IMG/VR virus record: IMGVR_UViG_2724679140_000015
DNA: 35,494 nucleotides
Direction: 5' to 3' (one strand)
DNA from: a virus
Lineage: Duplodnaviria; Heunggongvirae; Uroviricota; Caudoviricetes
Shown here piece after piece: positions 23,244-26,302 of the stretch. The notes below the pieces were generated by a model. It saw only the letters and a program-made list of their open reading frames with translations. It was not told where the DNA came from and did no database searches. How positions within the stretch are numbered: position 1 is the stretch's first letter; the number at the start of each line of letters is the position of its first letter. A program made the translations under genes and the position numbers.

Positions 23244-23373
23244 GTGTGTCTCCTTATCTGGTGGAGACAGCATCACAAATACAGGGCGCGAAGGATTTTA
23301 AAGCGCGTTAAGAGAGCCGGGGATACGGGATGTGCAGGATAAACGATGAATTATTCACAGAGGAGAATACGAT

Positions 23374-24117
23374 ATGACGCAGACACTGAATCCGGTCATC
23401 ACTGTCACCGTGTCCGGTCCTGTGGGCAGCGGTAAAAGTTACATATTGGCGCGGATAGAGGAAGTGGTGAAACAGGAATTCGGAAACAGCGTCATTGTCG
23501 ACGCCGCAGACGTGGACGGTGAGCGCCGTATGAGTGGGGGTGATCTGAGCACATGGCAGAAACCACGGGCAGGCACACTTATCCGACTGGAGGAATACAC
23601 AGAAAAAACTCCGATGTCATACAGCGAGGGATGCATTCTCCGGACGAATGCACTGCTGGATGTTATATGCCCCACAGGCCAGTACCCATGGACACTGCCC
23701 GATGCACTGCATGCCACTATTGCGGCACTGATGGCAGTTTACGATCAGGAGCTGCTCATGAAGGAGCTACGTAAACTCACTGGTCAGCCAACAGAATGTT
23801 TTTCGGCCCCGAAGTACGGGAAGCAGGAACACATCCCGGTGAACACAATCCCCGTTAACCAGCCTCCCCGGTTCTTCGACGAATACATTCTGACACCGGA
23901 AAATAAAGCTGAGCATGAAGTGATCAAAGAGGCGTTGTTCCGGGAAATCAGGAAGATTGCTGAAATGCAACTGGAGGGCGGGCTGGACAGAGTGATGGCG
24001 AGAGGAGAATGGGAATCGCTGTTTGAAAGAACTTCCCCGGAATTACTTCCCCTCGCACTGGCTATCGGGATTATGCAGACAGCGGATAAACCTCACTTAC
24101 GTTCATTAAACACGTAA
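23374..24117 (+). CDS. small P-loop NTPase/kinase-like protein, function unknown
   Basis: Walker A-like GPVGSGKSY near N-terminus; GAGGAG RBS 8 nt upstream of ATG. Confidence 0.5.
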   Translation: MTQTLNPVITVTVSGPVGSGKSYILARIEEVVKQEFGNSVIVDAADVDGERRMSGGDLSTWQKPRAGTLIRLEEYTEKTPMSYSEGCILRTNALLDVICPTGQYPWTLPDALHATIAALMAVYDQELLMKELRKLTGQPTECFSAPKYGKQEHIPVNTIPVNQPPRFFDEYILTPENKAEHEVIKEALFREIRKIAEMQLEGGLDRVMARGEWESLFERTSPELLPLALAIGIMQTADKPHLRSLNT

Positions 24118-24497
24118 CTCATAATCCGGGATACGCGTTCAGCGATGACTGCATTTTCACCGGTTTTTACTGCATCCAGAAGTGACTCTTTAAATGGTGC
24201 GGGCCGGGGCTGCAGAAGGGTCGGCGTGGCATTGAGCAGACGGAGCGTTTTTTCCGTGAGGACGACATCAGCCGCTCCCACAGCCAGCAACTGAGAGTAA
24301 CGAATATAGCTGTTATCCCGAAGCCATATCAGCGTATCAATAAAATACCGGCACTTTTTCTGGTCGTGATCAACCTGGTCCGGGATATCGAAAAAACCAG
24401 AATAAATCAAAACCTGAGGTGCCGGATGCGTGTTCAGTAATCGGCAGAATATTTTGCCGGTGAGTGCATAAAAATCATCATTTAAGGAGTGCATCAT
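24093..24497 (-). CDS. hypothetical protein, paralog 1 of a duplicated ~130-aa family
   Basis: Shares several conserved blocks with 24963-25343 (e.g. IFxRL, DTxxWLxxxxY, LNATP). Confidence 0.45.
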   Translation of the reverse strand: MMHSLNDDFYALTGKIFCRLLNTHPAPQVLIYSGFFDIPDQVDHDQKKCRYFIDTLIWLRDNSYIRYSQLLAVGAADVVLTEKTLRLLNATPTLLQPRPAPFKESLLDAVKTGENAVIAERVSRIMSYVFNERK

Positions 24498-24711
24498 GAA
24501 TCCCCGATTAACGTTAACAGAACATCAGCGCCGTGCTGAAGCAGTGAACAATGTTCTGGAAGATATTATCCGGTTACATCGCGGAGAACTGAGTGTCTGT
24601 CGTGCCACAGTTCATTTTCAGGAAATACAAAAGCAGTTTGATACTTCTGTTTTTGCAGAAGGTATTACTTATGCCCTGGACCAGATAAGGTCAGAAAATC
24701 GCCCCGGATAA
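24496..24711 (+). CDS. hypothetical 71-aa protein
   Basis: Strong AAGGAG RBS 6 nt upstream of ATG; start overlaps the divergent start of paralog 1. Confidence 0.35.
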   Translation: MNPRLTLTEHQRRAEAVNNVLEDIIRLHRGELSVCRATVHFQEIQKQFDTSVFAEGITYALDQIRSENRPG

Positions 24712-24962: not shown

Positions 24963-25343
24963 TTACATAAGACCACGAGACATATATTGCAGACCTATTC
25001 CTAGAGTCTGGCTAACCAGTGATCGCAACGCTTCTTTCCCTTCAATTTTTATAGAGTCAGATATTCTGGCCCCCAACGGTTTTTCCAGACTTCCAGGCGT
25101 AGCGTTTAATACCTCAAGACCTTTAGCCGTTAGCACTGCGTTGTGGATCCCCCCAGAACTACGCGCCCCGATTAAATAGCCACTGTTTTTAAGCCAGTCT
25201 ACGGTATCAAGAAAAAAAGTAAGTTCATTCTGTCTAACGATATCAACTGCCTTTATATCAATTTTGACGGGGAAAGATTCGTAGAGTCTCCCAAATATCT
25301 CACCAACTATTTCATTAAACCGCTCAATATTTTTTGGGGCCAT
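24963..25343 (-). CDS. hypothetical protein, paralog 2 of the duplicated ~130-aa family
   Basis: Likely start at internal ATG (MAPKNIERF...) at 25343; ORF-track start at 25427 probably over-extended. Confidence 0.45.
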   Translation of the reverse strand: MAPKNIERFNEIVGEIFGRLYESFPVKIDIKAVDIVRQNELTFFLDTVDWLKNSGYLIGARSSGGIHNAVLTAKGLEVLNATPGSLEKPLGARISDSIKIEGKEALRSLVSQTLGIGLQYMSRGLM

Positions 25344-25537
25344 GGTATTAGTAACTCCCTTTAATTGTCGCCCATGAAATATGCAAATAACATGAAAAGA
25401 GCGACTCACCTTGTGCAGCGAACACAAGGCGAGTCATCAACTTACAGGTATGAGCTGTGAGTCAACCGAGGCTCTTCCGTTCTCGAGAACAAGGGAAGCC
25501 TATCGCATTTTCATCTAATGAAAAAGGCTTACAGATA

Positions 25538-26302
25538 ATGAAAGAACAATCTTTACCCATCGTCCCCTGGATTGGGGGAAAACGTCGTCTGGCCAAACAC
25601 ATTCTGCCCCAGTTCCCACTCCATACCTGCTATGTGGAGCCATTCTGCGGCGCAGCAGCACTTTATTTTCTCAAGACTCCCAGCAAGATCGAAGTCATTA
25701 ACGATATCAACGGTGAACTGGTAAATCTGTATCGGGTAGTAAAGCATCATCTGGAAGAATTTGTCCGCCAATTCAAATGGGCGCTGGTTAGCCGGCAGAT
25801 CTACAAATGGCAGCAGATCACCCCGGAAGAAACACTGACGGATATCCAGCGTGCGGCACGGTTCTACTACCTCCAGAAGCAGGCGTTTGGGGGCAAGGTG
25901 GCAGAGCACAGCTTCGGCACCTCCACCACCTCCCCGCCACGCTTCAACCTGCTCCGGATTGAAGAAGAACTGTCAGCGGCACACCTGCGGCTTTCCAGAA
26001 CGGTGATAGAACACATGGACTGGCACCAGTGCATTAAGCGTTATGACCGTCCGCACACGCTGTTCTACTGTGATCCGCCCTATCTGGGGACGGAAGGCTA
26101 TGGTGTGGATTTTCCTGAAGAGAACTACACACTACTCGCAGAACTGGCACGGTGCATCAGAGGAAAGATGATTATCTCGGTGAATGACATTCCGCAGATG
26201 CGTCGGGTGTTCACTGAACTGAACATACAGACGGTGAATATCAACTACAGTCTGGCGGGGAAACCCACGCCGCGCCGTGAACTGGTAATCTGCAACTTCT
26301 GA
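25538..26302 (+). CDS. orphan Dam-like N6-adenine DNA methyltransferase
   Basis: N-terminal PWIGGKR and FCGAAA (AdoMet-binding-like) and catalytic DPPY motif; start at ATG 25538 preferred over GTG 25457. Confidence 0.7.
   Translation: MKEQSLPIVPWIGGKRRLAKHILPQFPLHTCYVEPFCGAAALYFLKTPSKIEVINDINGELVNLYRVVKHHLEEFVRQFKWALVSRQIYKWQQITPEETLTDIQRAARFYYLQKQAFGGKVAEHSFGTSTTSPPRFNLLRIEEELSAAHLRLSRTVIEHMDWHQCIKRYDRPHTLFYCDPPYLGTEGYGVDFPEENYTLLAELARCIRGKMIISVNDIPQMRRVFTELNIQTVNINYSLAGKPTPRRELVICNF

What the first reader, a model, noticed from the sequence alone, without database searches (positions are those of the whole stretch)
23374..24117. Small P-loop protein of unknown function next to the lysis cassette
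A Walker A motif (GPVGSGKSY) at residues 14-22 is followed closely by VIVDAADVDG, but there is no clear canonical Walker B or helicase motif, and at 247 aa it is too small for most ATPase families. It may be a nucleotide or small-molecule kinase, which phages sometimes carry for nucleotide pool manipulation or counter-defence.
Basis: partly seen in the sequence, partly recalled or inferred. Interest (0 to 1): 0.5.

Follow-up and report, generated by a model that had tools for sequence, protein, structure and literature searches.

The report
Miniature P-loop domain with shuffled tails
The gene is real and its ATP-binding-type motif is conserved, but the motif sits in a roughly 75-residue "mini P-loop" domain, too small to be a normal kinase or ATPase, that belongs to an undescribed phage family and is fused here to interchangeable helical modules of unknown function.

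Summary
The ORF at 23374..24117 (+, 247 aa) exists as described. It lies next to the lysis cassette of a BcepMu-like transposable prophage of E. coli and is under purifying selection.

- **Walker A motif:** GPVGSGKS (aa 15-22) is conserved in 250 of 253 homologues.
- **VIVD:** it is not conserved, so it is not a Walker B. The conserved acidic residue is E74, at the end of strand 3.
- **Conserved unit:** only aa 1-76 are widely conserved (strand, P-loop, helix, strand, E-R loop, strand ending in Glu).
- **Family:** this mini-domain defines at least 260 protein clusters with no Pfam or NCBIfam model. Most are free-standing 70-90 aa phage proteins.
- **Remainder of the protein:** module M3, a linker and module M7. 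These come from a pool of at least 8 small modules, found in at least 12 combinations at this slot in enterobacterial relatives. In one phage they are split into three ORFs.

A conventional kinase is not supported. My best, inferred reading is an oligomerising phosphate-ligand (NTP or nucleic acid) binding module joined to exchangeable adaptor modules, serving an accessory phage function. I rate it a new variant of a known kind, of moderate interest.

The parts
23374..24117 (+). Complete ORF (247 aa plus stop), a modular mini-P-loop protein and member of phrog_3787
   Evidence: phrog_3787 E 3.2e-149 over the full length; the exact protein occurs on 166 E. coli contigs, always named 'hypothetical'; dN/dS 0.35-0.42
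23360..23365 (+). Shine-Dalgarno sequence GAGGAG, 8 nt upstream of the ATG
   Evidence: read directly from the sequence; an AGGA core is conserved in diverged orthologous loci
23374..23601 (+). N-terminal mini-P-loop domain, aa 1-76 (strand 8-15, P-loop, helix 21-39, short strand ~41, E50-R51 loop, strand 69-76)
   Evidence: It is the only part conserved across the family. AF2 with a 69-sequence MSA gave pLDDT 71, pTM 0.59. dN/dS is 0.13-0.18.
23416..23439 (+). Walker A motif GPVGSGKS (aa 15-22)
   Evidence: G15, G20 and K21 are invariant and S/T22 is 69/69; 244 of 253 domains have GxxxxGK[ST] and 250 of 253 have GK[ST]
23521..23526 (+). E50-R51 loop motif
   Evidence: E in 54 of 68 sequences and R/K in 51 of 68; the role is inferred (a possible trans-acting Arg)
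23575..23595 (+). Strand 3 ending in the conserved Glu (TLIRLEE, aa 68-74), a Walker-B-like hhhLxE
   Evidence: E74 in 68 of 69 and L72 in 58 of 69 sequences, with hydrophobic positions 69-71; its geometry relative to the P-loop was not verified
23638..23796 (+). Module M3 (aa 89-141), predicted helical, '..W.LPDA.HA.IAAL..YDQ.L..ELRK'
   Evidence: Found in other architectures (P0020, P0023, P0048, P0050, P0059), without the N-domain (P0055, P0057), and inside a separate ORF in L016. dN/dS is about 0.5.
23797..23895 (+). Pro-rich linker (aa 142-174), no predicted secondary structure
   Evidence: low-confidence model, no secondary structure at 137-174; restricted to the close E. coli/Salmonella alleles
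23896..24114 (+). Module M7 (aa 175-247), predicted helical, '..DRVMARGEWESLF..'
   Evidence: Homologous module in P0031, P0035 and P0038, and as a separate 76-aa ORF in L016

Best explanation
SHOWN. The gene encodes a modular accessory protein of a BcepMu-like transposable prophage. Its conserved core is a ~75-residue truncated P-loop domain: strand 1, GxxGxGK[ST], helix 1, strand 2, a loop with E-R, then strand 3 ending in Glu. This domain defines a family found almost only in phage genomes and prophages, usually as a free-standing 70-90 aa protein under strong purifying selection. In enterobacterial BcepMu-like prophages it is followed by combinatorially shuffled small helical modules; here these are M3, a linker and M7. 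The modules can also be encoded as separate adjacent ORFs. INFERRED. The domain is too small to be a self-contained kinase or ATPase. It most likely self-associates. It would use Lys21/Ser22 of the P-loop, with Glu74 and perhaps Arg51 from a neighbouring subunit, to bind a phosphate-bearing ligand, either an NTP or nucleic acid. The exchangeable C-terminal modules would act as adaptors that couple this module to different phage or host partners. Free-standing relatives sit among replication, recombination, nucleotide-metabolism and pre-packaging genes. In BcepMu-like phages the gene opens a variable slot that ends in a Dam methylase. I therefore place its role in DNA transactions or host takeover during the phage cycle, rather than in nucleotide-pool phosphorylation.
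Against: No binding, oligomerisation or activity data exist. The AF2 model is of moderate confidence only (pLDDT 71; residues 43-51 below 50), and multimers could not be modelled. A small subclade (P0020, P0027, P0034) has GAExxGKN, with an acidic residue in the loop and no Ser/Thr, so nucleotide binding is not universally required. No gene partner is conserved across clades; the recurrent neighbours (TerS, TerL, HNH, portal, GemA) reflect synteny within lineages. The timing of expression is unknown, and no sigma-70-like promoter was found upstream. Conservation of the P-loop is partly circular, because homologues were recruited with profiles that contain it.
Confidence: 0.45

Rival explanations
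1. It is a small nucleotide or small-molecule kinase (NMP-kinase, dNK, zeta-toxin or shikimate-kinase-like) that alters nucleotide pools or phosphorylates a defence signal.
Confidence: 0.07
2. It is a prophage-encoded defence or superinfection-exclusion protein expressed in the lysogen. The conserved mini-P-loop would be the effector or switch, and the hypervariable C-terminal modules would sense incoming phage proteins.
For: The gene lies in a variable accessory slot between the lysis cassette and the repressor gene, where BcepMu itself carries unrelated genes. The combinatorial module diversity and mosaic divergence along the gene are typical of arms-race loci. The element is common, in 583 of 5426 complete E. 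coli genomes.
Against: No PADLOC model matches above noise (best E 0.0023, P-loop only). No toxic effector domain is recognisable. Free-standing homologues sit in the early/DNA-metabolism regions of T7-like, ERF/RecT-type and Mu-like phages, where a role in lytic growth is more natural. Many E. coli alleles are frameshifted.
Confidence: 0.15
3. It is a counter-defence or host-takeover factor. As a small oligomer it would sequester a phosphate-rich immune signal or nucleotide, or dock onto and poison a host P-loop enzyme or nucleic-acid machine. The variable modules would retarget it.
For: The family is restricted to phages. Its members are small and sit among early or accessory genes. An identical gene is shared horizontally between unrelated phage backbones. 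A Dam methylase, a classic anti-restriction function, is conserved at the end of the same slot.
Against: This is purely contextual. There is no similarity to any characterised sponge or inhibitor, and the ligand is unknown. The same evidence fits a neutral accessory DNA-metabolism role.
Confidence: 0.15
4. The P-loop is a structural relic. The N-domain would serve only as an oligomerisation or scaffold domain, and the biology would reside in the C-terminal modules.
For: GKN variants with an acidic residue in the loop exist in full-length, otherwise conserved proteins. The fold is incomplete for catalysis.
Against: Retention of GK[ST] in 250 of 253 domains plus a near-invariant E74, across very divergent free-standing proteins at 25-40% identity, is hard to explain without ligand binding. 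Free-standing forms have no C-terminal modules to scaffold.
Confidence: 0.1
5. It is a chance ORF or decaying pseudogene that happens to carry a Walker A motif.
For: A single motif is within chance expectation for the window. Many truncated or frameshifted alleles exist.
Against: dN/dS is well below 1. There is a strong ribosome-binding site. The full-length gene is conserved across hundreds of genomes. The family is deep, with conserved motifs.
Confidence: 0.02

Closest known systems
P-loop NTPases of the kinase type (nucleoside/nucleotide kinases, zeta toxin, PRK06762/AAA_33-like)
   Different: Only about the first third of the fold is present (75 aa against at least 150-170 aa). There is no LID, NMP-binding or acceptor site, and no fourth or fifth strand. 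All scores are below family thresholds.
Laboratory minimal P-loop proteins: 'phosphate-loop protein' prototypes (PDB 6c2u/6c2v) and the de novo designed ATPase PL2x4_2 (PDB 9jix)
   Same: They are the best sequence-profile hits in the PDB (E 1.2e-4 for 9jix, aligned from strand 1 to strand 3; E 0.017 for 6c2u). They have a comparable minimal strand-(P-loop)-helix context. The prototypes act as oligomers and bind NTPs and ssDNA.
   Different: Those are engineered or reconstructed proteins, some built from repeats. The window protein belongs to a natural phage family with its own extra motifs (E-R loop, K-P, LxExN) and fused modules. No biochemical equivalence has been shown.
PHROG family phrog_3787 (unknown function)
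   Same: Full-length match at E 3.2e-149. Free-standing relatives match its first ~75 positions.
   Different: The PHROG carries no functional annotation and models the 242-aa E. coli-type architecture, not the mini-domain as a unit.
Domain-shuffled phage regulators of the BRO / KilA-N / ANT type (analogy from my own knowledge of Iyer, Koonin and Aravind 2002; not tested here)
   Same: A conserved small N-terminal module is combined with many alternative C-terminal modules in phage accessory regions, including split-gene versions.
   Different: There is no sequence or fold relationship. The N-module here is a P-loop rather than a DNA-binding BRO or KilA-N domain.

Membership tests
P-loop NTPase superfamily | Walker A motif GxxxxGK[S/T] between a strand and a helix | tested here: met
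   GPVGSGKS at aa 15-22, lying between the predicted strand 8-15 and helix 21-39; conserved in 244-250 of 253 homologues
P-loop NTPase superfamily | Walker B: a hydrophobic strand ending in Asp or Glu placed next to the P-loop | tested here: inconclusive
   VIVD (aa 40-43) is not conserved. TLIRLEE (aa 68-74) ends in E74, conserved in 68 of 69 sequences.
P-loop NTPase superfamily | Complete three-layer alpha/beta/alpha core with a parallel sheet of at least five strands (about 140 aa or more) | tested here: not met
P-loop NTPase superfamily | Mg-NTP binding and hydrolysis or phosphotransfer | not testable with these tools
   Requires biochemistry.
   There are no such regions. The C-terminal 170 aa are helical modules unrelated to kinase folds and are not conserved. 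Kinase HMM matches have E of 0.14 or worse, or lie far below the cut-offs.
Zeta toxin (PF06414) | Pfam gathering score of 22.3 bits over the kinase domain | tested here: not met
   11.6 bits, E 0.18, covering aa 7-46 only.
ABC transporter ATPase / KAP NTPase (names some databases give to alleles) | A match to the family model above its cut-off (including the ABC signature and the Q and H loops, or the KAP domain) | tested here: not met
   KAP_NTPase scores 13.4 bits against a cut-off of 20. ABC_tran scores 18 bits or less against a cut-off of 25, and only over the P-loop region. NCBIfam ABC models match at E of 0.07 or worse, far below their cut-offs.
phrog_3787 | Full-length HMM match | tested here: met
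   E 3.2e-149, aa 1-247 against profile positions 1-242.
Known anti-phage defence proteins (PADLOC-DB v2) | A significant match to any defence-system model | tested here: not met
   The best match is Csx3-AAA at E 0.0023, 15.6 bits, over aa 7-50 (P-loop only). The two neighbouring unknown ORFs have no match.

The most novel reading that the evidence does not exclude
The N-terminal domain is a natural 'half' P-loop: a ~75-residue strand-(P-loop)-helix-strand unit that becomes functional only by self-assembly. It would build composite NTP- or ssDNA-binding sites across subunits. That would make it a living counterpart of the hypothetical ancestral P-loop prototypes, and the smallest natural P-loop protein family. 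Phages would use it as a portable nucleotide-dependent switch that is retargeted by swapping small adaptor modules.
Probability: 0.25. Interest if true: 0.8.

Novelty: new variant of a known kind. Interest (0 to 1): 0.55.

Why it matters
If the mini-domain binds nucleotides or nucleic acids as an oligomer, it would be the smallest natural P-loop module known. It would also give a natural test case for ideas on how P-loop enzymes arose from short strand-loop-helix peptides. For phage biology, it defines an unannotated family of at least 260 clusters. The family is present in about 11% of complete E. coli genomes through a BcepMu-like prophage. It shows unusually clear combinatorial module shuffling and gene fission, the pattern expected at a host-phage or phage-phage conflict interface. 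It also corrects misleading database names such as 'ABC transporter ATPase', 'KAP family NTPase' and 'uridine kinase'.

Tried and rejected
- **Full-length AF2 model:** with the shallow 8-sequence alignment it gave pLDDT 39.5 and was unusable except as a crude secondary-structure guide.
- **afdb50 fold search:** the library was not available.
- **Foldseek against the PDB:** nothing significant. The 4-oxalocrotonate tautomerase and STIV2 B204 hits have E above 1.
- **P0047:** a 2018-aa protein with 13 'stretches' is a eukaryotic Ig-repeat protein and a spurious hit.
- **161-aa ORFs:** those downstream of the Acinetobacter phage genes are NinB-like and unrelated to the 161-aa M1-M2-M3 ORF of L016. 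The shared length is a coincidence.
- **Systematic neighbour clustering:** across 47 loci it found no partner family shared between clades, only lineage synteny (TerS, TerL, HNH, portal, GemA).
- **Derivation from the phage's own MuB/ExeA-like ATPase:** hhalign shows only a generic 27-column P-loop match.
- **Pfam and PHROG scans of C-terminal regions of 20 relatives:** nothing, apart from one PG_binding_1 fusion.
- **Literature searches:** searches for the accession, the PHROG, small phage P-loop proteins and BcepMu-like E. coli phages found no description of this gene.
- **Promoter scan:** no sigma-70-like promoter was found upstream of the gene.

Full report
**Observation.** The window is essentially a whole BcepMu-like (genus Bcepmuvirus) transposable prophage of E. 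coli. It carries tail, head and Mu-type portal/F genes, a DUF3486-type small terminase, and a holin/SLT-endolysin/spanin-like lysis cassette on the minus strand. On the plus strand it carries a repressor, a Ner-like protein, an rve transposase, an ExeA/MuB-like ATPase, Gam, GemA (annotated 'gp16 family') and Mor. It has an ATG start, encodes 247 aa, and has a GAGGAG ribosome-binding site 8 nt upstream. It is transcribed divergently from the holin (PF13272, E 1.5e-41).

VIVDAADVDG occupies residues 40-49. A lone Walker A motif is not beyond chance: the window's six-frame translation has two, against 1.4 +/- 1.1 in shuffles. The other one is in the MuB/ExeA-like ATPase. The feature is nevertheless real, for these reasons:
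- The identical protein is on 166 E. coli contigs.
- The gene is in 583 of 5426 complete E. coli genomes.
- dN/dS against two orthologues is 0.35-0.42 overall and 0.13-0.18 in the N-terminal 76 codons.

**What is conserved.** Pfam, NCBIfam, PADLOC and the PDB sequences give only sub-threshold, generic P-loop matches confined to roughly residues 2-57. The one strong match is phrog_3787, of unknown function. The word-indexed homologue search found only close enterobacterial alleles and one 40%-identical protein.

An exhaustive HMMER search of 1.84 billion representatives was decisive. Of its 75 hits, nearly all match only profile positions 1 to about 76. Many of those hits are complete proteins of just 73-90 aa. 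Two further profile searches raised the family to 136 and then 260 clusters at 90% identity. None carries any precomputed Pfam domain, and the source names are a scatter of automatic guesses: 'AAA+ ATPase', 'uridine kinase', 'ABC transporter ATPase', 'KAP family NTPase'.

In a 69-sequence alignment at 25-55% identity, G15, G20 and K21 are invariant and S/T22 is 69/69. I28, L32, G37 and E74 are at least 90% conserved, and E50 (54/68) and R/K51 (51/68) are common.

**Structure.** With the shallow full-length alignment AF2 failed (pLDDT 39.5). With the 69-sequence alignment of residues 1-80 it gave a moderate model (pLDDT 71, pTM 0.59). The model has strand 8-15, the P-loop, helix 21-39, a one-residue strand at 41, a poorly defined 43-51 segment, a short helix 49-54 and strand 69-76.
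- Foldseek against the PDB found nothing significant.
- In BFVD the only near-significant hit is a 72-aa viral protein that is evidently a family member.
- A profile search of PDB sequences put a de novo designed ATPase (9jix, E 1.2e-4, aligned from strand 1 through strand 3) first. The laboratory 'phosphate-loop protein' 6c2u was also among the hits.

The domain therefore looks like an idealised first third of a P-loop fold and nothing more. In strand 1, alternate positions 9, 11 and 13 are hydrophobic, whereas positions 10 and 12 are mostly Thr, Glu, His or Asp. From this I infer that one face of the sheet is not covered by the protein's own helices, and that a partner surface is needed, either self-association or the C-terminal modules.

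**The rest of the protein.** Iterative searches within the collected set resolve the window protein into N[1-76], M3[89-141], linker[142-174] and M7[175-247]. They also show that the enterobacterial relatives are built from at least eight small modules in at least twelve orders:
- N-M1-M2-M3
- N-M1-M2-M4
- N-M2-M7
- N-M2-M4
- N-M2-M5
- N-M5
- N-M8-M5
- N-M1-M8
- N-M1-M2-M6
- N-M6, N-M7, N-M3, N-M2 and N alone.

In locus L016, another BcepMu-like phage, the same slot holds three consecutive ORFs: an 88-aa N-domain protein, a 161-aa M1-M2-M3 protein and a 76-aa M7 protein. Fusion in one phage and fission in another argue that the modules work together but fold independently. M3 also occurs without the N-domain (P0055, P0057). 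None of the modules matches Pfam or any PHROG other than phrog_3787 or another family of unknown function (phrog_37202). One relative fuses a peptidoglycan-binding domain in front of the N-domain (P0064). Divergence along the window gene is mosaic: dS is 0.35 in N, 0.27 in M3, 0 in the linker and 0.04 in M7 against E. coli M-17, which suggests recombination between alleles.

**Genomic context.** In diverged BcepMu-like phages the gene always opens the slot just beyond the holin, on the opposite strand. A D12-class Dam methylase closes the slot before the repressor gene. What lies between varies (window; PhiKM; L007/L008; L016). BcepMu itself has unrelated genes gp18-20 there.

Free-standing family members occur in several other phage types:
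- Acinetobacter P22/lambdoid-type phages, between HNH/NinB-type genes and the terminase.
- Marine phages, next to T7-like RNA polymerase/ligase, DNA polymerase A/primase-helicase, or ERF/YqaJ genes.
- Next to RecT/HNH, NinG, an NAD-dependent ligase, or thymidylate synthase/DHFR/Dam/RNR.
- Mu-like marine phages, just upstream of GemA.
- A Thalassolituus genomic island beside a giant polyvalent protein.

These genes are under strong purifying selection (dN/dS ~0.10; another pair shows 6 synonymous and 0 nonsynonymous changes). One identical 78-aa gene sits in three different phage backbones. Clustering of neighbours across 47 loci found no partner shared between clades.

**Interpretation.** What is shown is a genuine, selected, phage-restricted mini-P-loop domain, fused here to exchangeable modules. 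What is inferred is the mechanism. Seventy-five residues with one helix cannot form the three-layer, five-stranded core or the acceptor site of a kinase. I therefore reject the conventional kinase reading (confidence about 0.07). Near-absolute retention of GK[S/T] and E74 argues for phosphate-ligand binding.

By analogy with engineered strand-(P-loop)-helix polypeptides, which bind NTPs and ssDNA and act only as oligomers (10.1101/2020.07.30.228619), I propose an oligomeric NTP- or nucleic-acid-binding module. Its variable tails would act as adaptors. The GKN subclade warns that, at least in some members, the domain may be purely structural. The biological role cannot be decided from sequence. 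Candidates are accessory DNA-transaction or host-takeover functions, counter-defence, or prophage-encoded exclusion. The early/DNA-metabolism placement of the free-standing forms favours the first two. The hypervariable slot next to the repressor keeps the third alive.

**Comparison and novelty.** The protein meets the Walker A criterion of the P-loop superfamily but fails the complete-core criterion. It belongs to phrog_3787 and to no characterised family. I found no paper describing it. I classify it as a new variant of a known kind: a miniaturised P-loop domain family with combinatorial module fusions. It is of moderate interest for phage biology. It would be of higher interest for protein evolution if self-assembly and ligand binding are confirmed.

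Noticed in passing
window 24093..24497 (-) and 24963..25427 (-): Two paralogous ORFs of 134 and 154 aa (27% identity, E 4e-12), both in phrog_2266 (unknown function). Neither has a Pfam or PADLOC match, and a PDB sequence search of the 134-aa ORF found nothing. They are inserted between the P-loop gene and the Dam methylase and are absent from L007/L008.
   Followed up: partly
window 24495-24498: The start codons of the 134-aa ORF (-) and the 71-aa ORF 24496..24711 (+, phrog_4490) overlap back-to-back (CATG). This leaves no intergenic space for either promoter.
   Followed up: no
window 24093-24117: The 3' end of the P-loop ORF and the 3' end of the convergent 134-aa ORF overlap by 25 nt.
   Followed up: no
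window 23260-23345 (intergenic, holin / P-loop gene): Sequence blocks GGAGACAGCAT and TTTAAAG(C/G)G..TTAA are conserved across diverged BcepMu-like phages (window, M-17, PhiKM, L007, L008, L016). They are candidates for a divergent late promoter or activator site. No sigma-70 consensus was found.
   Followed up: partly
relatives P0021-P0025, P0093, P0102, P0133, P0142 (E. coli alleles of this gene): Many alleles are frameshifted around codons 60-80. They give N-domain-only products with the same out-of-frame tails. These could be pseudogenisation, homopolymer sequencing errors, or a recurrent route to a free-standing N-domain.
   Followed up: no
L009, L010/L011, L012 (marine viral contigs): An identical 78-aa mini-P-loop gene (0 nucleotide differences) sits in three different phage backbones: ERF/YqaJ type, T7-like RNAP/ligase type, and DNA polymerase A/primase-helicase type. 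This implies recent horizontal exchange.
   Followed up: partly
protein P0064 (159 aa, metagenomic): A peptidoglycan-binding domain (PF01471, E 4.7e-15) is fused in front of the mini-P-loop domain. This pairing is unexpected for a presumed cytoplasmic nucleotide-binding module.
   Followed up: no
window 25457..26302 (+): A D12-class Dam DNA adenine methylase (PF02086, E 2.9e-27) is conserved as the last gene of the variable slot in all BcepMu-like relatives examined. It is on the same strand as the P-loop gene.
   Followed up: partly
L003-L006 (Thalassolituus genome and marine contigs): A free-standing family member lies in a cluster of small unknown ORFs. The cluster sits between a type I-F CRISPR-Cas/BrxR region and a giant ~3300-aa ORF; where that stretch is called as smaller genes (L004), the products carry LPD38 and (faint) methyltransferase hits. 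This looks like a mobile-element or defence island.
   Followed up: no
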